Counted from the first letter of the stretch, positions 26,538-40,023 are shown. The stretch is 64,000 bases of DNA from an uncultured virus (IMG/VR IMGVR_UViG_3300048028_000412) (IMGVR_UViG_3300048028_000412); one strand, 5' to 3'. A program made the numbers and translations. Notes: generated by a model from the sequence alone, not told the origin.

Positions 26538-27335
26538 TTAATCCTTAATACCCATATACTTAGTATTAACACAGTCAGCTTTACCAAATATACGTTCGGC
26601 AGTTTTATCTGCATTTTTACAATACTTGTCTGCCATCTGATCAACGAACTCTTCGTAATCATTGCTGTGTGGTAAATGGCCTTCGCTAATACGATTTGCC
26701 GTATGCTGAACGTACCCGCTTACCTCTGTTAGGGCGACTTGAGGATGAACTCCGTATTGCGTCAAATACTCAATAGTAGCTGTTGAGGCTCTACCACCAT
26801 CTAACAAATTTCTATACATTAGTTCAAAACCACGCCTAACGTGGTGACGCTTTTCTTCTGCTTCAAAAGCCTCTTCGCTAAACTCTTCAATTTTATGAGT
26901 TTCTTTAATGCTTTCGTAGCTGTCTATCAGCGTGGCAATATCTTTAATACTACCGTTAATTTTGTTTTCAATTGATATAAGAGAGTGACGCTTATGTCTA
27001 AGCTTGGCCTCTGCAACTATATCATTTAGTCCTTCTAGCTCTAAAATTTCCACTCTTAATTCAGCGTGTGTAACTTGCGCTTCAGAAAGCGCCATCTTAC
27101 GTTTCTCAACTTCAGCCGTGATCTGGCGCAGCATTCGCATTGGGGAGTGACCGTTCAGCATTGTGAGAGTCATCATATTAATAGTGGTCTGGCTGTTCTG
27201 ACGATCAAAAGCTCTTGTCGCCTGATCTATCATAGGTAGCTTTTCCGCTACTCGTGCAGCGGCTACCTGATTAATGTTTTCAGAAGCCTCAACAGGGAGA
27301 CTAAACGTAATTGGCTTTGTTATAACTTGGCTCAT
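26538..27335 (-). CDS. Helical/coiled-coil hypothetical protein
   Basis: Charged helical composition; likely start MSQVIT at 27335 through TAATG overlap. Confidence 0.7.
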   Translation of the reverse strand: MSQVITKPITFSLPVEASENINQVAAARVAEKLPMIDQATRAFDRQNSQTTINMMTLTMLNGHSPMRMLRQITAEVEKRKMALSEAQVTHAELRVEILELEGLNDIVAEAKLRHKRHSLISIENKINGSIKDIATLIDSYESIKETHKIEEFSEEAFEAEEKRHHVRRGFELMYRNLLDGGRASTATIEYLTQYGVHPQVALTEVSGYVQHTANRISEGHLPHSNDYEEFVDQMADKYCKNADKTAERIFGKADCVNTKYMGIKD

Positions 27336-28888
27336 TATGCTGCTGCCCCTGATGTGGCACATCCATTATCACTATTTGCAGTTAAATCGCCAAAGTCAGT
27401 TGCGTTGCCCGTTGTTTGTATGCTGACCCGATCCATTGTGTTGTTAGCACCTCCACCAGAAATAACGGCATAGGTATGGTCACTACACACCCCACAGTTG
27501 CCTCTAGCAACCGTTGCATCTCCAAAGTCTACTGCATTAGCAGAGCTTGAAATGGTGCTGTATTGTATTTCGTTTGAGCTATTGCCCATTTTCCAAATGG
27601 CTCTTGTGCTATCGGCGGCACCTGCAACGTAACTTGTATTTGACCCTAATAAATCCCCGTGATCAGAGGCGTTAGAGGTTGTTGCCATTGTAATTTTGTT
27701 AATAACTGTTGTACTAAGCCCACCCGCAATAAGACCGTGAGTAGTATTAGCCGCACCGCCACATCTAGCTTTGGCTTCAGTAAGATCTCCAAAATCAGAA
27801 GAATTACCTTCTGTGGCTATAGTGACATACTCGATATTATTTACGCCGCTTACAGACCCAAGTCTACCGCCAGCCATAAGGCCGTATGTGCCATTTGATA
27901 CTGATGCGTGTTGACCTAAAGTGTTGCTAAGGTATCCGAATGCTGTTGCATTCCCAAGAGTAGCAACAGTGATGTAATCTATAGTATTTATCCACCCTCC
28001 ACCATTTCTAAGCGCACGAGTACCATTGCTACAAGCATTTGATAAACCAACGCTTGCGCTTTGATCGCCAAAGTCTGCTGCGTTTGAAGGAGTTGCTATA
28101 GTAAAGTAGTCTATTGCGGTTGAGTACGCAATAAAATGAATGCCCCTCGCACCGTGATTAACGGGAAACACAAGGCTCAGTGTAACAATTCGTGTCGTAG
28201 TAGAAATCCCATCAGATGCAGATAACCTTACCTTCACATCACCAGCGTGACTGGTATTTGTCGTCGGATCAAAAGTAAATACGCCAGTAGTTTGGTTTAT
28301 ACTAGTAGCATTTGCTAACTGATTGGGAAGAGCGTTAGAAGCATTAGGATAGGCTATGCCATAAGTTATTCCAAATCCTTCTGGATCGTAAGCTACCATA
28401 GTGACAGTAGATGTTGAGCCATCGCCATTTAAACCTAGAGTAGTCACTGGCTCAGTAGTGACAACAGGGCTTTCATCAGCGCCGGCGCTTACCCGCTTCC
28501 AAGCAGATCCCGCCCGAATGTATAAAACGTTCTTATCTTCATCAAATGCAAGATCACCTTCTGATGGAGAGGACACAGCGTCTATCGCGGTCTTGTTAGC
28601 ATAGGATGTTACGCCACCGGCTTCACCACTATTACCAGCTGGACCACTAATACCTACCCATTGAGAAGATGATCCGTCATTATAATAAACATACAAGGAA
28701 CCATCTGTGCTATTAAACCACTGATCACCAGCTACAGCACCTGAAGGAGCAGTATCTGATACTGTAACATTTGTTGTATTGTCACCACTAACATCCCACT
28801 TACTTGTAGTAGAATTGTATGTATATACAGCGCCGTTAATAGTTTGTGTCGCGCCGTTACTTGGACTGTCTGGAAAATTAATTGCCAT
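27335..28888 (-). CDS. Virion adhesin with Ig-like module and IDY.TIAT.GNA.DFGDL repeats
   Basis: About six repeats of ~43 aa (propeller-like); MAINFPDSP N-terminus. Confidence 0.7.
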   Translation of the reverse strand: MAINFPDSPSNGATQTINGAVYTYNSTTSKWDVSGDNTTNVTVSDTAPSGAVAGDQWFNSTDGSLYVYYNDGSSSQWVGISGPAGNSGEAGGVTSYANKTAIDAVSSPSEGDLAFDEDKNVLYIRAGSAWKRVSAGADESPVVTTEPVTTLGLNGDGSTSTVTMVAYDPEGFGITYGIAYPNASNALPNQLANATSINQTTGVFTFDPTTNTSHAGDVKVRLSASDGISTTTRIVTLSLVFPVNHGARGIHFIAYSTAIDYFTIATPSNAADFGDQSASVGLSNACSNGTRALRNGGGWINTIDYITVATLGNATAFGYLSNTLGQHASVSNGTYGLMAGGRLGSVSGVNNIEYVTIATEGNSSDFGDLTEAKARCGGAANTTHGLIAGGLSTTVINKITMATTSNASDHGDLLGSNTSYVAGAADSTRAIWKMGNSSNEIQYSTISSSANAVDFGDATVARGNCGVCSDHTYAVISGGGANNTMDRVSIQTTGNATDFGDLTANSDNGCATSGAAA

Positions 28889-28892
28889 TCTA

Positions 28893-31514
28893 TTAACCTT
28901 CTAATGAAGCTGTTGGTGGTGTGAAGTTTGCGGTATATCTACCTAAACCTTCAGTAAATCTTACATCTTGCATATATCCAGTTACTTCATTGTAGCCATT
29001 GCCTAGATTATTAGGTGATGGAGAACCTATAATCCACTCATTAAAACCGTCTATTGCAGGCGATTGTTGATAATTAGTTGCGGTTTGATCTAAATTCCCA
29101 TTTACAAAAAATCTAGTGGTTGAATATGGTGAACCTGTTACTCTTGATATTGCTAAATGATACCATTGACCTGTACTAAGCACTTGGCTACCACTCTGAA
29201 TAACTGAACCCCCAACCATCGCCGCTAACTTAGAGTTTCTTAATTCAAATGCTATTCTATTGGTTACATCAGCCGAAGATAACATATGAATAACACCGCT
29301 AACACTATTAAAATAACACCAAGCTTCAAAAGTATATTCCCCATTGCCAGGAATATCAACATCTCTTGCAGCATAAGCAATTACTTTATCGTGTAAACTA
29401 CCAGCAAAATACATTGACTTCGCACCAGTAAATTTAGTCGTGGTTGATCCAGTAGTAGTACCAAATAGCTTTAAGTTAGCGCCCTGAGACTTATCTATGA
29501 TCGAAGCGTCTGTACCTTTAATGTATAGTGCTGCGCCAGATGAGGATAGAGGAGAAGTAGGAACTGTAGATGACCCAGAAGGAGTACCAGAAACTACCTT
29601 TAAATCGGAGACATATCCATTGAGTGGGTATGCGGTACTCCAAGCAGAACCTAAGTCGCCTATGTAAAATGCACTGTTAGTTGGTGAATTAGAATTACTA
29701 ACACTTCCCAATAAAGTTCCATCAACAAAAAACTTTAACGTAGATCCATCCCATTGCAAATCTGTGTAGTACCATCTACCAGCGGAAACAGAAGTCGATG
29801 TGCCAAGATTAGCGCTTCCGATCTGAGCAAACCAATTGTTATTATCAATCGTTACACCAGTTCTTCCCGAATGCCCCGCTGTACCCTGACCCCATACAGC
29901 GCCATCGGTTGTATCATTCAAATAAACCCACGCCGTTACAGTAAAACTGGTTGATGGAATAATTTGAGTTGCAGTTGTGTTTAAACTATCCCCATCAAAA
30001 TACACAGATCCACCGTTATCTGTTGTTGAGTATTCATTGTAGTTGTATGGTGAGTATGGTTTCGTGGAGGTATTGCCGTTTATTGTGATAGAATGATCGT
30101 TAGTCGATCCATCGGCAATGTATGGCAAGTGGCAGGTAAGCAGCACAGTTCCACTAACAGCTGTCAAAGGTTCTGAAGGTGGCGTGAAATTATTATTTGA
30201 ATACTCGACATTTGTTGTAATTCTAAAGTCTCTAATATGACCATTCATTAAATATGAGGTATTAACATAGCCACCAATACTTATTGCGCTATTAATTGTT
30301 CTTGCTGTAGTATCACTAGCAAATTCAACCCCATCCAGATATGCTTTAAAGGTGTTGCCACTTCTTGTAATTGCAACGTGATACCACTTATTAGCTTCTA
30401 CTGCCGACGAAGCACCTAACTCTCCACCAGAGCTTGAATATAATCGAAACTGTCCTGATGTATGATTATAGAGTTCTAAAATAGTATTTGCAGAAGTTAA
30501 AGTTCCAAAGCTAAATATTCCAACATCTGTAGCTATTGCATTTAAGTTTACAAAAAATTGAATAGTAAAATCGCCTGATAAATTAATTGTAGGGGTTCTT
30601 AAATAATCCCCAGTACCATCAAAGTAAGTAGAATACCCTCCACTACGATACGGGCTAAACGTACCAGCATAAGCATCTCCAGTTACTGTAATGCTATGGT
30701 TATTTGAAGACGTATCAGCTATGTTATTGTTATCAGAAGTTCCAGTTGCTGTCGCTAACAAAGTTGTATACTTACTATTAGTAACTATAGTAATAAAATT
30801 CAATGTAAAGCTATTAGCGCTCGTTGCAGTATTAATTCCATCTGAAGCTGTAAATGTCAAACTAAATGTACCAGCATAAGCTTCGGTAGTAGAGGGCGTA
30901 ACTGTAAACTTGTTAGTATTAGACCCTGTACCTTGTACAACAGTTGCAGTTGTACCTCCACCATTGCTTAGAGAACCGCTAGTAACAGAATAGGTATAAG
31001 TTAATGGTACATCTTCTGGATCAGTTGCAGTAATTGTTATAACACTAGCTGATCCATCAGTTGATAAGGTAAATGGTGTAGTATTAGAACTAGCATCTGC
31101 TACACTTGTAATATTAGGGTTAGTATTTACTAACGATATAGAATACCAGCCTGTTCCATTAAAAATATAAAACCGATTTACTGCAGTCACATAAGCTTGA
31201 TCTCCAGCTGTATTTCCAGTCAATGGTAGATTATCAATTGTAGCATATATTGATACAGAAGACCCATCACTGCCGGCAGCACCGGTAGGGCCTTTTAGGC
31301 CAACTGGATTACTCAATACCCATTGAGAAGATGATCCGTCATTATAATAAACATATGTTCTAAGAACCGTTGAATCAAACCACAAATCACCCGCACTGGG
31401 CCCAGACGGCGCTGTATCTGATACAGTGATAGAGCCACCTCCCCCAGTAGCTCCTGCCGCTAAACCCTTGGTGACTCTTTTTGCTTTTACTTGAGAATAT
31501 CTATTGTTTGCCAT
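28893..31514 (-). CDS. Virion adhesin with three LamG-like domains
   Basis: Same scaffold as 98-2650 and 23977-26493; DTAPS..GDLWFDS module. Confidence 0.8.
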   Translation of the reverse strand: MANNRYSQVKAKRVTKGLAAGATGGGGSITVSDTAPSGPSAGDLWFDSTVLRTYVYYNDGSSSQWVLSNPVGLKGPTGAAGSDGSSVSIYATIDNLPLTGNTAGDQAYVTAVNRFYIFNGTGWYSISLVNTNPNITSVADASSNTTPFTLSTDGSASVITITATDPEDVPLTYTYSVTSGSLSNGGGTTATVVQGTGSNTNKFTVTPSTTEAYAGTFSLTFTASDGINTATSANSFTLNFITIVTNSKYTTLLATATGTSDNNNIADTSSNNHSITVTGDAYAGTFSPYRSGGYSTYFDGTGDYLRTPTINLSGDFTIQFFVNLNAIATDVGIFSFGTLTSANTILELYNHTSGQFRLYSSSGGELGASSAVEANKWYHVAITRSGNTFKAYLDGVEFASDTTARTINSAISIGGYVNTSYLMNGHIRDFRITTNVEYSNNNFTPPSEPLTAVSGTVLLTCHLPYIADGSTNDHSITINGNTSTKPYSPYNYNEYSTTDNGGSVYFDGDSLNTTATQIIPSTSFTVTAWVYLNDTTDGAVWGQGTAGHSGRTGVTIDNNNWFAQIGSANLGTSTSVSAGRWYYTDLQWDGSTLKFFVDGTLLGSVSNSNSPTNSAFYIGDLGSAWSTAYPLNGYVSDLKVVSGTPSGSSTVPTSPLSSSGAALYIKGTDASIIDKSQGANLKLFGTTTGSTTTKFTGAKSMYFAGSLHDKVIAYAARDVDIPGNGEYTFEAWCYFNSVSGVIHMLSSADVTNRIAFELRNSKLAAMVGGSVIQSGSQVLSTGQWYHLAISRVTGSPYSTTRFFVNGNLDQTATNYQQSPAIDGFNEWIIGSPSPNNLGNGYNEVTGYMQDVRFTEGLGRYTANFTPPTASLEG

Positions 31515-31515
31515 A

Positions 31516-34005
31516 TTAGTTCTCTATCAATACCCATCCGTTAGTTGCATTATAATAAACAAACCCTATTCCTGCTCTATCAAAGTCAATAATAAAGTCA
31601 GAATCACCTGCTTGTATTTTACTGCCATTCCTTGCTACAGTAATATTATTTGTACCAGCGTTACCTTCACCGTCAATAATTCTTATTTCATCTCCCATTG
31701 ATGGTCCAGCTGGTAACGTTACTTGAACGGTGCCAGTTGAAACGTCGATGAATAATTTATCACCAGCCGATGCATTAACATTTGTACTCGAAGCATTCCA
31801 CACACTAGATTGTAGCATATGATATGAAGCAACATTAATATAATCTGCAGAATCAGCTGCAGATGCCAATACAATAGAGCTACCATTCGTTGCTGTATAA
31901 TCCGCATCATCTAATAAGATACCGTTTAAAAATACCTGAGTATTACCAGCGCTATAATCTAAATTTGTTCCATTTTCATCAGACCCAGTAAAAGTGGTTT
32001 GACCTGAGTCAGCAATGAAGCTAAACGTATTTATACCACCTGCAGAAACCTTACCTCCACTAAAGGACGTAACCGCAAGTTCGTTTCCTGAATCTGCGCC
32101 TGTATTAAGAACTACACTAGTGCCATTTGAAGCTGTATAGTCAACTGTTTCTTTTAGCATAAAGCCGTTAAGATGTATTAATACATTACCAGGAGAATAG
32201 CTTAATGTGGTCCCGTTGACGTCAGCGCCAGTAAATGTAGTCTGTCCTGCGGTCGCAGTGTAGTTAAATTTATTAATATTAAGAGCCGCAGTAAACGCAG
32301 TTCTTGCAGATACATAATCACTGTCGACAGTATTAGCAATGAGAGAAATAGTTTGAGCAGAATCGACTGTACCAGATCCTCCTCCACCGCCAGAGTTAGC
32401 TTCTCTTAATGCGACATATGCAGAATCAACCGTAGTTGTAATAAGAGCAATAGTTGCAGCAGAATCTACACCACCTGCCGTAATATCAGATGTAAGCGCT
32501 AATGTGCCAGAAGTAGTTGGAAGAGTAATATCAACATTGCCTGAGTAAGCTGAATGAGCGGCTGACTTAAGTCTAGTTCTATGCGCATTAGAGGTTTCAC
32601 AGTAGAAATCTGCATAGGCTACACTTCCCGTGCCGGAGCGAATAGTTATGCCGCCGTCAGCTATGGTTACACCGCCTGTTGATCCATTTCCATCAATAGT
32701 AAGAGCTGAATCATCTAAAATTCCAGCTAGGAAGCTATGATTAACTTTTACTGTAACATCTGAATCAGATCTAGGCGTTGTATAATAAAGATTAGTAGAA
32801 CCTTCTGAAAGGGCGTCTGTTGTATGATTTGAAATACTAGAAACCGTACCAGTTACATTTCCAGTAACATTGCCGGTCAATGTTCCAACATTAAGATTTG
32901 CAAGAGTAAATCCTGTACCTGATCTATTTACAACGTTAGGAGGTAAAGAAGAATCAAAGGCCGAATCAATTAGCCCATTAAAAATATAAAATTCACTATT
33001 CGTGGCATCTCTAAAGAAACCGGTATGTTCCCTGGTGGCGCCATTATCAGGTGAATAATGGCCTATAAATCCAATATCTACTACATCAGATTGCTCATTA
33101 CTATCTGCAAGATGTAATAGCGGATCAACTACTGTATATACTACAGAGTTAACACTAGTAGTTGTGCCATTAACAGTTAAATTGTTAGCAGTAACATTAG
33201 AGAATGTAACGGAATCAGTGGTACCAACGGCTTGACCAATAGCTATCTCGCCAGAAGCAATAGTAACTCCGGTTCCAGCCGTAAAATGTGCCCTTGCTTC
33301 CGCCGCGCTGGGGCCTGTATACGTTAAAACTCCTGTAGAGTTATTATAAGCTAGTGATCCATCTCCACCAGCATCAGTTACAGAAATAAGTTTTCGTGCT
33401 TCTGCCGAATCTACAAAATCGGTGCCGAGGGTAGGTAGTGTAGGCGTGTTAGTAAAGTTATTATAGTCTAGATGATAGGCGCTGTTATTACCACCTAGCG
33501 TATCTGCATCAATAGTTAAAGCATTAATATATGCCGCATTGACTGTAGATGTAATTTGTCCTTGAACTGCTGTAGAGTCATGTGTGTCTGCAGCAGCAAT
33601 AAGTAGATTAACTTGAGCCGAATCAACAAAATCTGTTCCTAGTGTAGGAATAGTAGGAGTGTTCGTAAAGTTAGCGTAGTTTAAAAGATATCCCGTGGTC
33701 AATCCACCAACGGTATCGGCGTCAATGGTTAAAGCATTAATGAATGCAGCATCAACGTCGGTAGAGATAACGTTAGAAATAAATGCAGAATCTCTGAAGA
33801 TATCAGCTTGTCTTGCCTGAATGTAAGCTGAATCAATTAGACCGACAATTGAGGCTGAATCAGTTCCAGTAACCTCTATACCACCTACAGTAGATCCGTC
33901 ACCTACATATAGCTTGTTTGTATCGCTGGTAAAGACTGGTTCTCCGACCACTGGTGTGATCGTGAGTCTATCTGAATCAGTACCTCTTCTAAACTGTAAT
34001 GGCAT
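31516..34005 (-). CDS. Tail fibre / branching protein with Mtd_N-like N-terminus
   Basis: LQFRRGT..GEP..DT.KLYVGDG.T.GG; about 21 DS dipeptides; C-terminal NNITVARNGSKI..NGWV. Confidence 0.75.
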   Translation of the reverse strand: MPLQFRRGTDSDRLTITPVVGEPVFTSDTNKLYVGDGSTVGGIEVTGTDSASIVGLIDSAYIQARQADIFRDSAFISNVISTDVDAAFINALTIDADTVGGLTTGYLLNYANFTNTPTIPTLGTDFVDSAQVNLLIAAADTHDSTAVQGQITSTVNAAYINALTIDADTLGGNNSAYHLDYNNFTNTPTLPTLGTDFVDSAEARKLISVTDAGGDGSLAYNNSTGVLTYTGPSAAEARAHFTAGTGVTIASGEIAIGQAVGTTDSVTFSNVTANNLTVNGTTTSVNSVVYTVVDPLLHLADSNEQSDVVDIGFIGHYSPDNGATREHTGFFRDATNSEFYIFNGLIDSAFDSSLPPNVVNRSGTGFTLANLNVGTLTGNVTGNVTGTVSSISNHTTDALSEGSTNLYYTTPRSDSDVTVKVNHSFLAGILDDSALTIDGNGSTGGVTIADGGITIRSGTGSVAYADFYCETSNAHRTRLKSAAHSAYSGNVDITLPTTSGTLALTSDITAGGVDSAATIALITTTVDSAYVALREANSGGGGGSGTVDSAQTISLIANTVDSDYVSARTAFTAALNINKFNYTATAGQTTFTGADVNGTTLSYSPGNVLIHLNGFMLKETVDYTASNGTSVVLNTGADSGNELAVTSFSGGKVSAGGINTFSFIADSGQTTFTGSDENGTNLDYSAGNTQVFLNGILLDDADYTATNGSSIVLASAADSADYINVASYHMLQSSVWNASSTNVNASAGDKLFIDVSTGTVQVTLPAGPSMGDEIRIIDGEGNAGTNNITVARNGSKIQAGDSDFIIDFDRAGIGFVYYNATNGWVLIEN

Positions 34006-34030
34006 TTATTACCTCAATAAATTCTGCTTA

Positions 34031-34038
34031 TATTTATA
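34031..34038 (-). promoter_or_regulatory. T4-type late promoter
   Basis: TATAAATA in intergenic gap. Confidence 0.8.
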
Positions 34039-34041
34039 AGT

Positions 34042-34869
34042 CTATATGGCGCCCATATCTAATGTAAATCCTACAGGACTCAATATTGTCCCAAAATCAA
34101 AAACTTGATTAGCTGTAGAAGCAATCGTTACTCTCTTATTATTAACATCTGTTGTGATATCAATTCCTGTACCGCCAGCAAATGTAACTGTATCACCACC
34201 TGTGGTAGCATCTACTGATAAGTCACCAACTACTGCTACTGTACCGAAGTTATTAACAAAGTCTCCTGATCTAATTGCAACGTAAGCCGAGTCAACAATA
34301 GTAGCAACATAATTTTCTTTAATTAAATTTTGTACAAAGGCGCTATCAACAATTCCCGCTACTTCATTTGAATCAACTGGGCCTACTGTATTAGCAGCAA
34401 TTCCACCAATAAATGCTGAGTCAGGAATAATAGGAGCGTTAGTAAAGTTATTATAGTTAAGATAATATGTACCATCTTGCCCATCTAATGTTCCGGCATT
34501 AACATCTAATAAATTTACAAATGATTGATCGACATGGCTATCAATTATACTATTAATAGCGGCAGAATCTAATCCCACCGAGCCCCTATTTACAAATGTA
34601 AGGGTGCCAGAACCATTAGTAGTTAAAACCTGGTTAGCGGCGCCATCTGTAGCGGGAAGTGAATAGTTGCCGACAGTGAGATTATCTGTCGTAAGGGTAT
34701 TAAAATGAGCTGAATCATTACTCTGAAAATGCTGTACCGTATTACCAGATGTCTTATAGTACAAGCGGCCATCAGCATAGTTGATAGCTACTTCGCCGTA
34801 CTCGAGGTCCGTATTAAGAGGTATGCGTCCAGCAACACTGGACTTTTTCAGTTTAATGTTAGTCGACAT
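34042..34869 (-). CDS. Short fibre/connector protein
   Basis: IKLKKSS..GEVAINYADGRLYYK; LP.TDG.ANQVLTTNGSG. Confidence 0.7.
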   Translation of the reverse strand: MSTNIKLKKSSVAGRIPLNTDLEYGEVAINYADGRLYYKTSGNTVQHFQSNDSAHFNTLTTDNLTVGNYSLPATDGAANQVLTTNGSGTLTFVNRGSVGLDSAAINSIIDSHVDQSFVNLLDVNAGTLDGQDGTYYLNYNNFTNAPIIPDSAFIGGIAANTVGPVDSNEVAGIVDSAFVQNLIKENYVATIVDSAYVAIRSGDFVNNFGTVAVVGDLSVDATTGGDTVTFAGGTGIDITTDVNNKRVTIASTANQVFDFGTILSPVGFTLDMGAI

Positions 34870-34897
34870 TTTAATCCCTAAAAAGGAGTTTATTTAA

Positions 34898-34925
34898 AGT
34901 CGGACAACTAAAAAGCTATCCGACT
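34898..34925 (-). terminator. Stem-loop, probable terminator
   Basis: Minus strand AGTCGGATAGCT-TTTT-AGTTGTCCGACT then TTAAAT. Confidence 0.6.
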
Positions 34926-34942
34926 ATATTAATATTATATAT

Positions 34943-37900
34943 CTAGTAAGTACCACCATCAATTGTAGAAAGTGCTACGTCACCATTAGTAAGTGTAAAC
35001 TGTCTTGTACCTTCACCTGCACTATCAGCGTATGCACCAAAGCTTGCTACACCTTTAGATGTTCTTGTAGCATTTCTACCAGTAACAGTAATAGTAGAAC
35101 CCGAACCCGAGGTACTAATACCTTGAGGCCAGTCACCTACAATATTAAGTGTTTCACCTAGTGTTTGTTGTAAACTGGTACCTGCACCAGGAGCTCCTGT
35201 ACCCGTGCTACCAGTTCCGAAAGTAATATCATTTGAAGTTACTACACCAGTATTAACTGTAAAGTTAGTAGAATTAAAGCTAGCTGCACCCTTTTGGCTG
35301 GCAGATGCTATAGCAGCGCTAATAGTTAATGCAGTACCGGTCGCCGCAGTAGTAATAGTGTTATGAGTGGTTTCCCCTTGGATAGTAAACGTTTCGCCAA
35401 GAGTTGCAGCCGCTGTACCGGTTTGCCCGGAAAGCGTAATATCATCTGCACTAATAATACCAGAAGAAGAACTAAAATGTGTGGCATTAAAGGTTGCAAT
35501 ACCTTTTGTAGAACCATCAGCAGCAGCGTCCGTGCCGGCAACTGTAATAATACCACTGCCTGGAGTGATACTAATACCAGTACCAGCTGTTAAGATATCT
35601 TCCATGTCTGAATCGACACGAGCAGTTGTATAATAAAGGTTAGAGAGACCTTCGCTTAAGCTATCAGTAGTTCTTTGAGCAAACTGAGTATTAAAGTTAT
35701 CACTCGGACCAACAATGGTATCAGCTGTGATAGTGCCTACTCTAAGATCTGCAAATTGATATGAAGCAGCTGATACGTTAATTTCTGTATCAGGGTCTGT
35801 AGAATCTAAGCCTGGTTGATCTAAATTATCAAAGAGCTGATAAGTTCCGCTAGTGGCGTCTCTTACAAGACCAGTGTGTCTTTTTGTGCTACCGCCATCA
35901 TCTGAATAATGACCTAAGAAACCAATATCAATTGTGTCTGATGTCTCGTTGCCATTAGCAAGTTGGATCATAGCATCGCTAACAGCTAATGTAGTTGTAT
36001 TGATTACCGTGTTAGTACCATGTACTGTTAAGTCACCATCAATAATAACATTACTGGTAAAGTTAGCACCTGAGAATGTTACAGAGTCAGTAGTACCTAC
36101 TGCTTGTCCAATTGCAAAGGTACCAGTACCTGATGTATATGTTACACCAGTTCCAGCGGCAAAATGAGCTCTTACTTCAGCCGGGCTAGGTCCCGTGTAG
36201 GTAATAGCGCCAGTTGAGTTGTTATAAGCTAAAGATCCATCACCACCTGCATCAGTAACAGAAATAGCTTGTCTGGCCGGAGATGTAACTCTTGCATTTG
36301 TAAAGTAAAGATTAGTCGAGCCTTCAGCTACGCTGTCGGTATCGAAATCAATACTTCCGCCTAGTGATATTGTATTGCCTAAAATCTCAATAGTTGAGTT
36401 AGCTAATTCAGCATTACTAATTTCGTTATTAGCAAATGTAACAGAATGGCCAGTAAGATCTAATGTAGTAGCAAGTTCACTATCGGAAATACCACCAGTC
36501 TTAACTGCGACATGACCAGATGCGACTTCAAAGTTATCAGTACTAAATGATGCCGTACCAAGATTAGAACTTGTTGCCTCTTCAGTAGCAATTGTAACAG
36601 TACCAGAAGTTACAGAAGTTGTAATACCTTCTCCACCGGCAATGTCAATTGTTCCACCAAGCGATATAGGCGTTGTATTAGCATCATCACCAGTAAATGT
36701 TGTAGTTGAATTTACAAGCTTGCTGTTTACAATTGCCCCTGCTAACTGAGTATTTGAAACACCGCCGGCGGCAATAGTAACTGCGCCTGAAGATACCGCA
36801 AAATCAGCTGCAGCAAAACTAGCAATACCTTTTGCACTGGTGCTAGCATCTGTTCCAGATATTGTAATAGTATTATTTGAAACTGCTGTAGCAATACCTG
36901 TACCACCAGTAAAAGTGAGTTCAGAATCTAGTAGGTTAACATTATCATCGGTACCAGTATCAGCTTTAATTGTAAGATCAGTAGAAATAGAAGCTGTTGT
37001 AGCATTAGTAACTCTACCTTGAGCATCAATAGTAAGTACGGGAATTAACGCTGCAGTACCATATGTACCAGCTGTCACAGCGGTATTGTCTAGGTCAAAT
37101 GTTACCTCGTCAGTGCCTACTGTAGAGGTTAGCCCAGTTCCGCCTGTAAATGTTAATGTGTCTGATAACAAGTCCACGGCATTGTTGTTAGTACCATCAG
37201 TGATATCTAACGTAGTAGCAATATTAACTGTACTTGCTGCTGTTAAGCGGCCGAAAGTATCTACTGTGAATGTAGGAATTGCCGTAGTTGAACCATATGA
37301 TCCAGCTGATACCGCAGTTGCATCTAAGGCATAAGATACTGTATTATTACTAATAGTAGCTGTTACATGACCTGCAGCGCCTGTAAAGTTTAGAGCAGAG
37401 TCAAGAAGATTTACTGTATCACTGTCAGCAGTATCGCCACGAATAGTGAGATCAGTTGAAATATTAAGTGTACCAGCAGCAGTTAAGCGACCTTGTTGAT
37501 CTACAGTAAACGTTGGAATAGCAGAAGCAGAGCCATAAGAACCTGGAGTTACTGCTGTGTTAGATAGAGTTACAATTAATTCATCAGCAGCATGAGAGGT
37601 TTCGATACCTGTGCCACCAGATAAGGTAAGAGTGTCTCCTAAGTCAACTGCCGTACCAGTACCTGCATCAGAAGCAATACCAATAGTACTATTATCAAGT
37701 TGACTGTTGCCAATTGAGTTAATAGTAACTTCACCAGTACCTGATACGTCAAAGTCAGCTGATGCAAACGATGCAACACCAACCGCTGAAGTTGTAGCTA
37801 AGTCACCGCTAATAGTTACTGTATTGTTAGTAACAGTAGTTGAAATACCGCTTGTACCCAAGAAGCTAAGATCAGAATCAGCGATATTAACTACATCAGT

Positions 37901-38383
37901 ACCAGTATCACCCGCAATGTCAATAGTCTTGGCACCAGCAATAAAGTCAACATATTCTTTTGTGGTAAGAGAGTTTGTGCCAAAGCCTGATCTATCTTTA
38001 TATCCAGCTGGAACGTTAACTGCGCCTGTACCGTTGGGGGTTAGGGTAAGAGCAGTGTCAGCAGCTGTAATGGAGATAGTTGATCCGTCAATGTCAATAT
38101 TATCAACTTTTAAGTTATCTATTTTACTGTTAGCGTCAACTAAAAGTGCACTCGAGGCTGTAAGTACACCTAAAGCATGATCTAGTTTATCAGTAAAATA
38201 TGAACCGCCAATAACTTCAATATTGGCTGCTACACCTGCCGTTTCAGTTCCTGTGCCGATATATAGTCTATCACCACCGGATACAACTGAATGGTCAGCA
38301 TAGCTGTATGCCATTTCTCCGTTTCGTAAAGCCGATGGGGCGCCACTAGTACCCGATCTTTTTATCTTAATTATAGATGCCAT
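34943..38383 (-). CDS. Long tail fibre
   Basis: IKIKRSG..GEMAYSY N-terminus; V..GSYG....IP.FTVD..GR.T and GVASF...DF.V repeats; ends IDGGTY. Confidence 0.8.
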   Translation of the reverse strand: MASIIKIKRSGTSGAPSALRNGEMAYSYADHSVVSGGDRLYIGTGTETAGVAANIEVIGGSYFTDKLDHALGVLTASSALLVDANSKIDNLKVDNIDIDGSTISITAADTALTLTPNGTGAVNVPAGYKDRSGFGTNSLTTKEYVDFIAGAKTIDIAGDTGTDVVNIADSDLSFLGTSGISTTVTNNTVTISGDLATTSAVGVASFASADFDVSGTGEVTINSIGNSQLDNSTIGIASDAGTGTAVDLGDTLTLSGGTGIETSHAADELIVTLSNTAVTPGSYGSASAIPTFTVDQQGRLTAAGTLNISTDLTIRGDTADSDTVNLLDSALNFTGAAGHVTATISNNTVSYALDATAVSAGSYGSTTAIPTFTVDTFGRLTAASTVNIATTLDITDGTNNNAVDLLSDTLTFTGGTGLTSTVGTDEVTFDLDNTAVTAGTYGTAALIPVLTIDAQGRVTNATTASISTDLTIKADTGTDDNVNLLDSELTFTGGTGIATAVSNNTITISGTDASTSAKGIASFAAADFAVSSGAVTIAAGGVSNTQLAGAIVNSKLVNSTTTFTGDDANTTPISLGGTIDIAGGEGITTSVTSGTVTIATEEATSSNLGTASFSTDNFEVASGHVAVKTGGISDSELATTLDLTGHSVTFANNEISNAELANSTIEILGNTISLGGSIDFDTDSVAEGSTNLYFTNARVTSPARQAISVTDAGGDGSLAYNNSTGAITYTGPSPAEVRAHFAAGTGVTYTSGTGTFAIGQAVGTTDSVTFSGANFTSNVIIDGDLTVHGTNTVINTTTLAVSDAMIQLANGNETSDTIDIGFLGHYSDDGGSTKRHTGLVRDATSGTYQLFDNLDQPGLDSTDPDTEINVSAASYQFADLRVGTITADTIVGPSDNFNTQFAQRTTDSLSEGLSNLYYTTARVDSDMEDILTAGTGISITPGSGIITVAGTDAAADGSTKGIATFNATHFSSSSGIISADDITLSGQTGTAAATLGETFTIQGETTHNTITTAATGTALTISAAIASASQKGAASFNSTNFTVNTGVVTSNDITFGTGSTGTGAPGAGTSLQQTLGETLNIVGDWPQGISTSGSGSTITVTGRNATRTSKGVASFGAYADSAGEGTRQFTLTNGDVALSTIDGGTY

Positions 38384-38691
38384 TAATAAAAGCCCCCGTC
38401 TTGACTTATTTCTACATTACCCAGTTCATTTCCTGCTGCCCATTTGTCACTCGCCGAATCATAGATAATTAATGAACCATCTGCTAAACTTGTAAAGTCT
38501 ACATTTAAATTTTCAAACCTAACCTTACCAAAGGATAGGTTCCCTGCGCCATCTGTTATCATTACAGATCCCGCTGAGTCTGCGTCTACAGTCGGATAAC
38601 TTAACTCTCCAACTTGCAGCGAACCGCGAAATACTGCAGAGTCCGTGACATCTAAACCGGTTTTTATGACAAACTTTTGTTTAATCGCCAT
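38383..38691 (-). CDS. Small fibre connector protein
   Basis: YP..D...G.V.ITDG.GNLSF; ends DGGFY. Confidence 0.6.
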   Translation of the reverse strand: MAIKQKFVIKTGLDVTDSAVFRGSLQVGELSYPTVDADSAGSVMITDGAGNLSFGKVRFENLNVDFTSLADGSLIIYDSASDKWAAGNELGNVEISQDGGFY

Positions 38692-38728: not shown

Positions 38729-38736
38729 TATTTATA
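38729..38736 (-). promoter_or_regulatory. T4-type late promoter
   Basis: TATAAATA in intergenic gap. Confidence 0.8.
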
Positions 38737-38747
38737 TGTTTTTTCTT

Positions 38748-39665
38748 TTATGCTTCAATGTTTATTCTTTTTGCCTTGACTATTGTATTAACGTAATACG
38801 GTGTAACAATTAACTCAAATTGCTCATCTTGTATCCGCGCATCAATTATTCCTAAATCAGAGTCAGTTTGCAGCACGCCATATTCAGTCATATAAACATT
38901 AGTATTATCATGTGTAAATAAAACTTCAGAAGAATAATACTTATTGTTATCAGTTTCATGAAGCGATATTAAATATTTAAGTGACCTATATTGGTCTGCA
39001 GAAAAAGTATCAACTACATAGTCAGCAGTAGTTAATCCTGGTTCTGGCATATCTGCATCTAATTCAAATAAAGACGCTCCTTTAGCCCTCTCCAAAACAT
39101 ATGCCGAATCAAAAAAGTTTTCTAATCCTGGCGCCGTCTGAGTAGAATCATAAATATAATTATCACCTCGAATCCAGTCATTAATTGTGTCAATAGTTCT
39201 GGCTGAATCAAATTTAGATAAAGGAACTAATTGGCTTGAATCCACTGGCTGGCCAGGAACAGGTGCGGGCCCTACAGAAAGTGTTCCACCGCCTCCATCT
39301 GCTAGGACGGTTCCTCCTAAGAAGATTGTCTCACCAGCTAGAAATAATTCTTTAAATCTTTTTGTAGGAGAACCTAAATTGTAAGCAATGTCAGTATCAG
39401 GTACCATATTACCGGTAACAATAGTACCACCAGAATCTACATTATCAGTGATTCCTGACAAAACAATATTTGTAGGCTTATTAGTGAGGTTTTCATAGTT
39501 TCGATAAAACCCCGGAGAATCTCCACCTAAGGTAGCCGCGTCATAAAAAACCTGATCAACAGATTTTATAGGAGTACCAACCATCACCTTTTTTACAATG
39601 GTAGTGCTTTCAGATACTCTTATCTCGGGGTTTTGATTTACCTTTACTACATATTTGTCAGACAT
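38748..39665 (-). CDS. Virion structural/fibre-associated protein
   Basis: YNLGSPTKRFKELFL; C-terminal YRSLKY..SE..HD...YMTEYG domain. Confidence 0.6.
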   Translation of the reverse strand: MSDKYVVKVNQNPEIRVSESTTIVKKVMVGTPIKSVDQVFYDAATLGGDSPGFYRNYENLTNKPTNIVLSGITDNVDSGGTIVTGNMVPDTDIAYNLGSPTKRFKELFLAGETIFLGGTVLADGGGGTLSVGPAPVPGQPVDSSQLVPLSKFDSARTIDTINDWIRGDNYIYDSTQTAPGLENFFDSAYVLERAKGASLFELDADMPEPGLTTADYVVDTFSADQYRSLKYLISLHETDNNKYYSSEVLFTHDNTNVYMTEYGVLQTDSDLGIIDARIQDEQFELIVTPYYVNTIVKAKRINIEA

Positions 39666-39669
39666 TCAC

Positions 39670-40023
39670 TCACCTAGTTACAGAAGGAGTCACTTGGGCT
39701 CTTCCTTCTAATATCCGCTCGATAATTGTATTATTGTCTGAATCCTGATATTGTAGCTCCACATCATAAACATAGCGACCGGCTTTCAATGCATCTGTTT
39801 GAGTGTTTGAAAGACTTAAAGTAATTTTGCCATCAGTAGCAGGGGTAGCTACAATACCTGTAAAGTCTACCGTGTCTGCACTATCACTGTTATAGGATTT
39901 TTTGAGTTTAGCGGATACTGTATGATTAGTCAGGTCCTTTGTCGAACCATCTAATGCAACTAGATGTACTTCTATTGCTACATCGGCCCCTTGGTCGATG
40001 GTAAATTCTTCATACTGGGCCAT
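39670..40023 (-). CDS. Conserved Ig-like virion adaptor (BppU-like)
   Basis: IDQGAD..ITLSL...T..LKAGRYVYDVE..RILEG...VTPSVT. Confidence 0.65.
   Translation of the reverse strand: MAQYEEFTIDQGADVAIEVHLVALDGSTKDLTNHTVSAKLKKSYNSDSADTVDFTGIVATPATDGKITLSLSNTQTDALKAGRYVYDVELQYQDSDNNTIIERILEGRAQVTPSVTR

What the first reader, a model, noticed from the sequence alone, without database searches (positions are those of the whole stretch)
31516..38691. Head-to-tail docking code: C-terminal DGGxY / DxGxI followed by an Mtd_N-like N-terminus, three times in a row
Seen: the 102-aa protein ends DGGFY and the next gene starts IKIKRS..GEMAY. That protein ends IDGGTY and the next starts IKLKKS..GEVAIN. That one ends DFGTI..LDMGAI and the next starts LQFRRGT..GEP. 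Inference: each C-terminal peptide plugs into the next protein's N-terminal domain, so gene order spells out a four-segment concatenated fibre.
Basis: inference. Interest (0 to 1): 0.7.

Follow-up and report, generated by a model that had tools for sequence, protein, structure and literature searches.

The report
Plug-and-socket joints chaining phage fibre proteins
Four neighbouring tail-fibre genes of an uncultured T4-like marine phage carry matching end motifs, a short peptide at the end of one protein and a small cap domain at the start of the next, and this is the same pairing found at the joint between gp36 and gp37 in the phage T4 long tail fibre, so the proteins most likely join end to end into one long fibre.

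Summary
On the minus strand, the 102-aa protein ends QDGGFY and the 1146-aa protein starts MASIIKIKRS..GEMAY. That protein ends IDGGTY and the 275-aa protein starts IKLKKS..GEVAIN. That one ends FDFGTI..LDMGAI and the 829-aa protein starts LQFRRGT.

The pairing is far from chance. In 160 related IMG/VR loci, 153 of 159 distinct junctions have such a C-terminal end directly upstream of such a start. Among other ORFs, 17 of 306 carry the end motif.

The same pair occurs in T4 (gp36 ..DFGYY, then gp37 ..IQFKRS..GELAIN). It also occurs in other T4-like phages, cyanophages, a Vibrio podovirus, and Bordetella phage BPP-1 (fibre ..ADLGGIA, then Mtd). In T4, trimeric gp36 is known to bind the N-terminal region of gp37 (PMC3004832).

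My reading is a gp36/gp37-type joint used three times in series. Physical docking is inferred: the complex predictor was unavailable. Only the 829-aa start is a Pfam Mtd_N domain. Sockets without an adjacent plug also exist (5 of 19 isolates).

This scan has made the same reading before on other DNA. Verdict: a new variant of a known kind, of moderate interest.

The parts
38748..39665 (-). 305-aa protein directly upstream of the chain. Its C-terminal part resembles the T4-type baseplate wedge / tail-fibre connector. Context: the likely attachment site of the chain (inferred).
   Evidence: phrog_967 'baseplate wedge tail fiber protein connector', E 6.3e-11, residues 216-288. No Pfam hit. phmmer found no PDB hit to gp9.
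38729..38736 (-). TATAAATA (T4-type late promoter consensus, recalled) 38 nt upstream of the 102-aa gene. It may start the 102-1146-275 transcription unit.
   Evidence: 15 of 17 matches in the window lie on the coding (minus) strand. The total count is not above chance (17 against 11.2 +/- 3.6).
38383..38691 (-). 102-aa adaptor protein. Its N-terminal ~60 aa are shared with the N-termini of longer fibre proteins. It has a conserved DGSLIIYDS..W stretch and ends in the plug QDGGFY.
   Evidence: QDGGFY invariant in 6 homologues of 63-95% identity; N-terminal matches to P0062, P0098, P0148, P0151, P0086, P0058, P0125.
38386..38400 (-). Plug 1: last five codons of the 102-aa protein (DGGFY). The stop codon overlaps the next start codon (TAATG).
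   Evidence: 62 of 62 distinct junctions before MASIIRIKRS-type starts end in x-x-G-x-[YFW].
34943..38383 (-). 1146-aa fibre protein (segment 2): N-terminal socket, a shaft of GxASF..F.V..G.V repeats, and a C-terminal plug.
   Evidence: (phrog_15769; phrog_697 structural protein).
38249..38383 (-). Socket 1 (type A): residues 1-45, MASIIKIKRSGTSGAPSALRNGEMAYS..GGDRLYIG.
   Evidence: Alignment A5. hhalign to type B: 96%, E 2.5e-9. The monomer model of residues 1-130 has pLDDT 80 with a small beta domain in residues 1-60.
34946..34960 (-). Plug 2: last five codons of the 1146-aa protein (DGGTY).
   Evidence: 96 of 103 distinct junctions before IxLKKS-type starts end in x-x-G-x-[YFW], and 6 more carry 1-2 extra residues.
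34870..34942 (-). 73-nt gap between the 1146-aa and 275-aa genes. It holds an inverted repeat GTCGGA..TCCGAC (about 34898-34925) and an AGGGA ribosome-binding site.
   Evidence: Read from the sequence. The terminator scan did not call it.
34042..34869 (-). 275-aa short fibre protein (segment 3): type B socket, short shaft, tandem D-x-G plug.
   Evidence: (phrog_17885 tail fiber; phrog_35830 long tail fiber distal subunit, residues 4-44).
34735..34869 (-). Socket 2 (type B, gp37-N type): residues 1-45, MSTNIKLKKSSVAGRIPLNTDLEYGEVAINYADGRLYYK.
   Evidence: tblastn hits the N-termini of annotated gp37 distal long-tail-fibre subunits; 186 phage records match. Alignment A8.
34045..34101 (-). Plug 3: last 19 residues, FDFGTILSPVGFTLDMGAI, a tandem D-x-G-x-aliphatic motif.
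   Evidence: The same tandem form stands before Mtd_N-type starts in L187, L193, L195 and L199-L202.
34031..34038 (-). TATAAATA 26 nt upstream of the 829-aa gene (late-promoter-like).
31516..34005 (-). 829-aa distal fibre protein (segment 4). It ends ..GWVLIEN without a plug.
33889..33996 (-). Socket 3 (type C): a true Pfam Mtd_N domain, residues 4-39.
   Evidence: PF18454, E 2.5e-9, 37.3 bits against a cut-off of 26.3. phmmer to Mtd 1YU0-1YU4 residues 5-50, E 0.006.
31525..31788 (-). C-terminal XD1-type beta-sandwich domain (residues 740-827), the likely distal tip of the chain.
   Evidence: phmmer to CBA120 TSP4-N (7REJ, 7RFO, 7RFV) residues 90-175, E 3.3e-7. XD1 is residues 80-178, is gp9-like, and shares its fold with glycan-binding domains (PMC8825819, passages read). 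phrog_972, phrog_31104.

Best explanation
The four genes encode homotrimeric segments of one long, T4-long-tail-fibre-like appendage. The segments are joined head to tail by the same kind of non-covalent joint that links gp36 to gp37 in T4.

Each joint has two parts. The 'plug' is the extreme C-terminus of the upstream trimer: x-x-G-x-aromatic with a free carboxylate, or a tandem D-x-G-x-aliphatic. The 'socket' is the first ~45 residues of the downstream trimer: hydrophobic-x-hydrophobic-[KR][KR]-[SG], then about 12 residues, then GE.A, then a turn and a strand. This is the layout of the Mtd N-terminal cap.

The proposed order is: a gp9-like connector (305 aa), then the 102-aa adaptor, then the 1146-aa shaft, then the 275-aa link, then the 829-aa distal segment. 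The distal segment ends in an XD1-type beta-sandwich and carries no plug.

Shown: the motifs, their conservation, their co-occurrence across phage groups, and their identity with the T4 gp36/gp37 and BPP-1 fibre/Mtd pairs. Established knowledge: gp36 binds the N-terminal region of gp37, and Mtd sits at the ends of fibres. Inferred: that the terminal peptide is itself the contact, that the conserved basic pair of the socket meets the acidic residue and carboxylate of the plug, and that the order of assembly equals the gene order.
For: Motifs are at the stated places.

Conservation in relatives:
- A relative at 58% identity (L011) and a more distant one (L012) keep plug and socket at each junction.
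- 153 of 159 distinct junctions carry the plug, against 17 of 306 control ORFs.
- By socket class, 62 of 62 type A and 96 of 103 type B sockets follow an aromatic-ended plug. Of 26 type C (Mtd_N) sockets, 12 follow D/E/N-x-G-x-aliphatic and only 1 follows an aromatic end.
- The last six residues are far better conserved than the 24 before them.
- Gly codons vary synonymously.

The same pair in other phages:
- T4, CC31, phiR1-RT, fHyAci03, PS49 and KMB43 at gp36 then gp37.
- DC31, Melnitz, P-HM2, S-B43, Motura and Vibrio podovirus 172P1.
- BPP-1 bbp9 then Mtd.
- In all, 14 of 19 isolates examined.

Donors are unrelated apart from the tail. PF03903 matches T4 gp36 residues 56-195 only, and matches none of the window's donors at E<=1.

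Socket classes are related: A to B 96%, B to C 75%, E 2.5e-5.

Only three sockets were found in the nearest 152-kb record G001, all in this cluster.

Literature: trimeric gp36 binds the N-terminal region of gp37 (PMC3004832). Mtd localises to the ends of tail fibres (PMC2408619).
Against: - No interface was seen: no solved structure of the joint and no complex model.
- The loci were fetched through socket homology, and many come from related phages with conserved gene order, so the counts are not independent events.
- Sockets occur without an adjacent plug in 5 of 19 isolates: S-CAM7, S-PRM1, DSL-LC02, S-SCSM1 and S-SRM01. They also do so in 8 of 18 bacterial-genome loci, with 2 more ambiguous.
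- A plug can precede a gene without a socket (Vibrio 172P1 147-aa protein; S-B43 590-aa protein).
- One Mtd_N socket follows DGGTY (L188), so the class rule is not strict.
- In P-HM2 a socket heads a protein annotated as a baseplate wedge subunit.
- Types A and B do not reach Pfam Mtd_N.
Confidence: 0.62

Rival explanations
1. The plugs and sockets are real joints, but the system is a kit and not a linear chain. The 102-aa adaptor, or another plug-bearing protein, can carry any of several socket-bearing fibres. The virion then bears alternative or branched fibres, and gene order does not give the assembly order.
For: Plugs 1 and 2 differ by one residue (DGGFY, DGGTY). Vibrio 172P1 has two paralogous plug proteins followed by two sockets. 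S-B43 has three plugs and two sockets in a row. Sockets without adjacent plugs exist. BPP-1 is reported to carry two Mtd trimers per fibre (PMC2408619).
Against: Position -5 and -2 of the plug are nearly fixed (D, T) before type B sockets but variable before type A sockets. Aliphatic tandem plugs go with Mtd_N sockets. This points to cognate pairs. In T4 the colinear reading is correct for gp36 then gp37.
Confidence: 0.2
2. The C-terminal motif is a folding or trimerisation cap of fibre proteins (or a chaperone tag) and does not touch the next protein. The adjacency only reflects conserved gene order in related phages.
For: C-terminal parts are known to nucleate folding of trimeric fibres (established knowledge, recalled). 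Many of the 160 loci are related. No interface has been seen.
Against: The motif is absent from the last protein of the chain (the 829-aa protein here; T4 gp37). It is present on donors of unrelated families, from 70-aa adaptors to 1300-aa shafts and gp36. It is rare on other ORFs (17 of 306). Its form tracks the class of the following socket.
Confidence: 0.1
3. The conserved GG codons are a nucleotide signal: a ribosome-binding site for translational coupling of the next gene.
For: At type A junctions the gap is short (median 12 nt), and 22 of 47 distinct tails hold GGAG or GAGG. Junction 1 reads GACGGGGGC..TAATG.
Against: All four Gly codons are used at both positions. Only 5 of 90 type B tails hold such a site, and their gap has a median of 62 nt with a maximum of 158 nt. 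T4-type plugs (DFGYY) have no GG.
Confidence: 0.03

Closest known systems
Phage T4 long tail fibre, distal half: the gp36-gp37 joint
   Same: The gp36 C-terminus ..VQDFGYY is followed by the gp37 N-terminus ..IQFKRSKIAGTRP..GELAINLKDR. The window's 275-aa start hits annotated gp37 N-termini. Trimer binds trimer, gene order equals fibre order, and gp36 binds the N-terminal region of gp37 (PMC3004832).
   Different: T4 uses the joint once; this window uses it three times in a row. The donors here are not gp36 family members: PF03903 does not match them. There is no gp35-type knee protein or gp34-type proximal shaft. A 102-aa adaptor stands first. The third joint uses a tandem aliphatic plug with a true Mtd_N socket.
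Bordetella phage BPP-1 tail fibre (bbp9) with the receptor-binding protein Mtd
   Same: bbp9 ends ..ADLGGIA and the next gene, mtd, starts MSTAVQFRGGT. The 829-aa start is a Pfam Mtd_N domain. Mtd sits at the ends of fibres (PMC2408619).
   Different: BPP-1 is a podovirus with a single joint. Mtd is a C-type-lectin tip diversified by a retroelement. The 829-aa protein is a long shaft that ends in an XD1-type domain, and no retroelement was seen here.
T4 gp10 / CBA120 TSP4 XD2-XD3 hubs (branched tailspike complexes)
   Same: Both are modular trimer-to-trimer attachment of receptor-binding proteins. The 829-aa protein carries an XD1-type domain (PMC8825819).
   Different: This is another joint type. 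XD2/XD3 jelly-rolls bind partner N-termini sideways and make branches. Here a terminal peptide and an N-terminal cap make an axial joint. XD1 itself is not known to bind trimeric partners (PMC8825819).

Membership tests
T4 gp36/gp37-type fibre joint | The acceptor N-terminus is homologous to the gp37 N-terminus | tested here: met
   tblastn with residues 1-50 of the 275-aa protein matched 186 phage records, among them annotated gp37 distal subunits of CC31, EcS1 and Acinetobacter phages. The T4 and CC31 gp37 starts show the same motif.
T4 gp36/gp37-type fibre joint | The donor ends in D-x-G-x-aromatic as gp36 does | tested here: met
   Ends seen: T4 DFGYY, CC31 and PS49 DFGTY, phiR1-RT DFGAY, fHyAci03 DYGTF, KMB43 DFGTF. 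The window has DGGFY and DGGTY. The third donor ends aliphatic (DMGAI).
T4 gp36/gp37-type fibre joint | The donor belongs to the gp36 family (Pfam PF03903) | tested here: not met
   PF03903 matches T4 gp36 at E 9.6e-53. It does not match the 102-aa protein, the last 200 aa of the 1146-aa protein, or the 275-aa protein at E<=1.
T4 gp36/gp37-type fibre joint | The donor trimer physically binds the acceptor N-terminal region | not testable with these tools
No solved structure holds a gp37 N-terminus.
Pfam Mtd_N (PF18454) | HMM match above the gathering score, 829-aa protein | tested here: met
   37.3 bits against a cut-off of 26.3, residues 4-39. phmmer to Mtd chains, E 0.006.
Pfam Mtd_N (PF18454) | HMM match, 1146-aa and 275-aa proteins | tested here: not met
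   No Pfam family for either protein at E<=0.01. 0 of 33 type B starts match Mtd_N at E<=1.
Pfam Mtd_N (PF18454) | Remote homology or shared fold of type A and B starts with Mtd_N | tested here: inconclusive
   hhalign of type B against an Mtd_N-type alignment gave 75%, E 2.5e-5 over 40 columns; with 3-sequence alignments it gave 1.7%. The model of type A residues 1-130 against 1YU0_A gave Z 2.6, rmsd 2.8, 43 aligned residues, which is within noise.
T4 gp9-type baseplate/fibre connector | Sequence match of the 305-aa protein | tested here: inconclusive
   phrog_967, E 6.3e-11, but over 73 residues only. No Pfam hit. phmmer found no PDB hit to gp9.
XD1 domain (T4 gp9/gp10, CBA120 TSP4) | Sequence match of the 829-aa C-terminus to a solved XD1 domain | tested here: met
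   phmmer to 7REJ_A residues 90-175, E 3.3e-7. XD1 is residues 80-178 (PMC8825819).

The most novel reading that the evidence does not exclude
The plug and socket form a general, class-coded connector used across myo-, sipho- and podoviruses. Aromatic-ended x-G-G-x-Y/F plugs fit K/R-K/R-S sockets (gp37-N type). Tandem D-x-G-x-aliphatic plugs fit R-R-G-T sockets (Mtd_N type). Small adaptors, such as the 102-aa protein, convert a baseplate anchor into a plug. If so, fibre architecture and assembly order could be read from genome sequence alone, and fibres evolve by swapping segments at these joints.
Probability: 0.35. Interest if true: 0.75.

Novelty: new variant of a known kind. Interest (0 to 1): 0.55.

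Why it matters
Tail fibres decide which bacteria a phage can infect, yet how multi-protein fibres are put together is known in detail for very few phages. If a five-residue tail plus a 45-residue cap marks each joint, the order and number of fibre segments could be read directly from uncultured phage genomes. The type A socket alone was found in more than 565 IMG/VR stretches. The unsolved gp36-gp37 junction of T4 would also gain a concrete, testable contact. I found no description of this sequence rule in the held paper library. The scan itself has reached the same reading on other DNA.

Tried and rejected
- The monomer fold of the 102-aa protein was poor, with mean pLDDT 43.
- The monomer fold of the type A socket region had pLDDT 80, but Foldseek found no PDB match below E 0.74. 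VIA-align found nothing above Z 3.5. Mtd 1YU0 appears at Z 2.6 and HylP1 2C3F at Z 2.4, both within noise.
- Profile searches of the PDB with type A and type B sockets found nothing credible. The T4 gp37 N-terminus has no solved relative.
- A search for natural fusions of a plug followed by a socket inside one reading frame found one doubtful case (L129) among all loci and proteins held. There is therefore no Rosetta-stone support.
- The likeness of the 102-aa start (MAIKQKF..GLD) to the T4 gp34 start (MAEIKREF..GLD) is not supported: hhalign gave 6% over 17 columns.
- The ribosome-binding-site explanation is rejected on codon usage.
- megablast of the region against 50,697 phage records found no match.
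- Papers on chain-like fibres of phage A1002 and on PhiXacm4-11 concern other architectures.
- An alignment of six Mtd_N-type starts was too diverse for the locus finder. A three-sequence subset was used instead.


Full report
WHAT IS THERE. The window is the structural module of an uncultured T4-like myovirus with about 38% G+C and nearly all genes on the minus strand. It includes baseplate, sheath, tube and portal-like genes (names by N-terminal likeness, recalled). megablast against 50,697 phage records found nothing. The nearest held record is a 152-kb IMG/VR contig, G001, estimated 86% complete.

The finding covers four consecutive genes:
- 102 aa (38383-38691), ending QDGGFY.
- 1146 aa (34943-38383), starting MASIIKIKRSGTSGAPSALRNGEMAYS and ending IDGGTY.
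- 275 aa (34042-34869), starting MSTNIKLKKSSVAGRIPLNTDLEYGEVAINYADGRLYYK and ending FDFGTILSPVGFTLDMGAI.
- 829 aa (31516-34005), starting MPLQFRRGTDSDRLTITPVVGEPVF and ending GWVLIEN.

Upstream lies a 305-aa protein whose C-terminal part matches the PHROG family 'baseplate wedge tail fiber protein connector' (E 6.3e-11). Downstream lies an 873-aa protein with concanavalin/LamG domains and a different start.

IS IT MORE THAN CHANCE. Within one genome the argument is weak. If four fibre genes are clustered anyway, 2 of 24 orders give three plug-to-socket adjacencies. The weight therefore comes from other genomes.

A relative with 58% identity in the 275-aa protein (L011) keeps all three junctions: DGGFY then MASIIKIKRS, DGGTY then IKLKKS, LDMGAI then LQFRRG. 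A more distant one (L012) keeps two. Homologues of the 102-aa protein at 63-95% identity keep QDGGFY invariant.

I then fetched loci through the N-terminal domains alone. For the IxLKKS type (type B), 393 matched, 250 were confirmed and 80 were kept.

In these 160 loci, 153 of 159 distinct junctions have x-x-G-x-hydrophobic at or within two residues of the upstream C-terminus. Among other same-strand ORFs of 80 aa or more the figure is 17 of 306, and most of those 17 are fibre ends (..DGGTY) whose next gene is cut off by the end of the locus. The six junctions without the motif were three with no upstream ORF and three Mtd_N-type starts preceded by ..EIYGFV..EIYGMV and ..ADFGSSLT.

In right-aligned tails, the last six residues before type B starts carry 3.1-4.3 bits each, against 0.9-2.2 bits for the 24 residues before them. 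These loci were selected by socket homology and many are related, so the counts are not independent events. They show conservation, not repeated invention.

INDEPENDENT LINEAGES. The N-terminal 50 residues of the 275-aa protein hit, by tblastn, 186 phage records. Among them are the N-termini of annotated gp37 distal long-tail-fibre subunits. I read 17 of these records, plus T4 and BPP-1.

A plug stands directly before the socket in 14 of these 19:
- T4 (gp36 ..VQDFGYY, then gp37 MATLKQIQFKRS..GELAIN).
- CC31 (DFGTY).
- phiR1-RT (DFGAY), fHyAci03 (DYGTF), Limnohabitans phage DC31 (ESGQY, DGGTY), Melnitz (NGGTF, DGGTYS) and P-HM2 (NGGSF; DGGTF with one small ORF between).
- Vibrio podovirus 172P1 (DGGAY, DGGSY) and siphovirus S-CBS2 (an ambiguous ..GGTFGSG).
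- PS49 (DFGTY), KMB43 (DFGTF), S-B43 (DGGSF, DGGTFE) and Motura (DRGTF).
- BPP-1 (bbp9 ..ADLGGIA, then mtd MSTAVQFRGGT).

Five cyanophages have a socket with no plug next to it: S-CAM7, S-PRM1, DSL-LC02, S-SCSM1 and S-SRM01.

For Mtd_N-type starts in bacterial and MAG genomes, 104 stretches matched and 18 were confirmed. Of these 18, 8 have D-x-G within the last seven upstream residues, 2 are ambiguous glycine-rich tails, and 8 have none.

The donors are unrelated apart from the tail. PF03903 covers T4 gp36 residues 56-195 and matches none of the window's donors, nor the Vibrio, Melnitz, P-HM2 or BPP-1 donors, at E<=1.

A PARTIAL CODE. Socket class and plug class go together:
- Type A: 62 of 62 distinct junctions are preceded by x-x-G-x-[YFW].
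- Type B: 96 of 103 are, and 6 more have 1-2 extra residues.
- Type C (LQxRRG, the true Mtd_N type): of 26, 12 are preceded by [DEN]-x-G-x-aliphatic, 1 by an aromatic end, 12 by other ends and 1 by nothing.

Before type B sockets the plug is almost always DGGTY. Before type A sockets, positions -5 and -2 vary. Plugs before Mtd_N sockets are often tandem (D-x-G.. then 7-10 residues then D-x-G..), as in this window and in L187, L193, L195 and L199-L202. Exceptions exist: DGGTY precedes an Mtd_N start in L188.

WHAT THE DOMAINS ARE. Only the 829-aa start reaches Pfam Mtd_N. It also matches the solved Mtd chains at residues 5-50 (E 0.006). Types A and B get no Pfam family (0 of 33 type B starts at E<=1).

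Profile comparison relates A to B (96%, E 2.5e-9). It relates B to the Mtd_N type moderately (75%, E 2.5e-5 over 40 columns; no signal with three-sequence profiles). A monomer model of the type A region is confident (pLDDT 80) and shows a small beta domain in residues 1-60. It has no significant structural match. Mtd appears in register but at Z 2.6.

The last ~90 residues of the 829-aa protein match the XD1 domain of CBA120 TSP4 (7REJ residues 90-175, E 3.3e-7). XD1 is a gp9-like beta-sandwich whose fold also occurs in glycan-binding domains (PMC8825819, passages read). That suits a distal tip.

The first ~60 residues of the 102-aa protein recur at the N-termini of longer fibre proteins of 207-1143 aa. 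They also recur as an internal repeat in giant fibres. This suggests, but does not show, that the small protein is an adaptor from an anchoring site to a plug.

RIVALS. A ribosome-binding-site origin of the GG codons is rejected. All four Gly codons are used, only 5 of 90 type B tails hold GGAG or GAGG, and the gaps reach 158 nt.

A pure folding-cap role does not explain three things: why the last protein of each chain lacks the motif, why unrelated donors share it, and why its form follows the next socket.

A kit or branched arrangement, as opposed to a strict linear chain, remains open.

MECHANISM. In T4, trimeric gp36 binds the N-terminal region of gp37 to start the distal half-fibre (PMC3004832, passages read). 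In BPP-1, Mtd trimers sit at the fibre ends (PMC2408619, passages read). A 2026 preprint models (gp36)3-(gp37)3 only at low resolution (10.64898/2026.03.06.709160, passages read). The PDB copy holds no gp37 N-terminus.

I therefore infer that the three C-terminal peptides of one trimer seat on the N-terminal cap of the next. I also infer that the conserved basic pair of the socket faces the acidic residue and free carboxylate of the plug. This contact is inference. The complex predictor was unavailable.

The chain totals 2352 residues per strand, against 2908 for T4 gp34-37 (sums).

NOVELTY. The joint itself is known at the level of 'gp36 binds gp37'. I found no description of the terminal sequence rule or of its serial use in six searches of the held library. 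Subscription journals are largely missing from that library.

The scan has reported the same plug-and-socket reading on other DNA (e1-6057632, e1-5742154, e1-6132751, e1-6036101). I formed my reading before seeing those notes, and they are not independent evidence.

Noticed in passing
window 21451-23931 (-), and proteins P0045, P0058, P0125; L176:5564-5779: A second recurrent C-terminal ending, ..A(I/L)A(I/L)(A/V)(L/F)G(G). It occurs on the 826-aa protein (..AMAIVFGG), on several relatives of the 102-aa protein's N-terminal module (..ALAIALG), and on a 72-aa Melnitz 'tail fiber' protein (..FAIALG). It may mark another kind of terminal joint or anchor.
   Followed up: no
window 28893-31514, 23977-26493, 98-2650 (all -): Three large LamG-type proteins (873, 838 and 850 aa) share the C-terminal ending ..RYTANFTPPTASLEG. 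The 838-aa and 517-aa (27335-28888) proteins share the start MAINFPDSP.NG. The 1179-aa and 850-aa proteins share a start of the type N.K(L/N)..LANVLD.G..GQ. So other sets of modular termini exist in this phage.
   Followed up: no
window, 15 sites on the - strand (e.g. 7963, 10176, 15884, 23961, 34031, 38729, 40082, 54842, 58365): TATAAATA, the T4 late-promoter consensus (recalled), lies mostly in short gaps just upstream of structural genes on the coding strand: 15 of 17 matches. The total count is not above chance (17 against 11.2 +/- 3.6; 6 of 100 shuffles reach it).
   Followed up: partly
window about 34898-34925 (-): Inverted repeat GTCGGA(14 nt)TCCGAC in the 73-nt gap between the 1146-aa and 275-aa genes. 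The terminator scan did not call it.
   Followed up: no
L015:3001 (IMG/VR contig that is also G001): In the nearest 152-kb record, the reading frame of the MASIIKIKRS fibre gene is open for only 306-317 aa, against 1146 aa in the window. This could be a frameshift, an assembly error or a real truncation.
   Followed up: no
L129:1-2900 (+): One reading frame holds a type A socket (..TPTIRIKRSSTSGDP..GELAYS) 283 residues inside an open frame, just after ..NGGNNLNVIFMTPPAYVNP. This is either a natural fusion of two fibre segments or an upstream frame that is open by chance.
   Followed up: partly
L185, L189, L190 (Alphaproteobacteria / Candidatus Enterousia MAGs): Here Mtd_N-type starts are preceded by a conserved 89-99-aa protein ending ..DIKEDLTLIKGAVIK and not by a D-x-G tail. 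This may be a different partner for the same socket.
   Followed up: no
window 39670-40023 (-): The 117-aa protein (phrog_1084 / phrog_3304, 'L-shaped tail fiber protein assembly') has homologues standing just before the small plug protein in Melnitz, P-HM2 and DC31. It is a conserved neighbour of the chain, and its role is unknown.
   Followed up: partly
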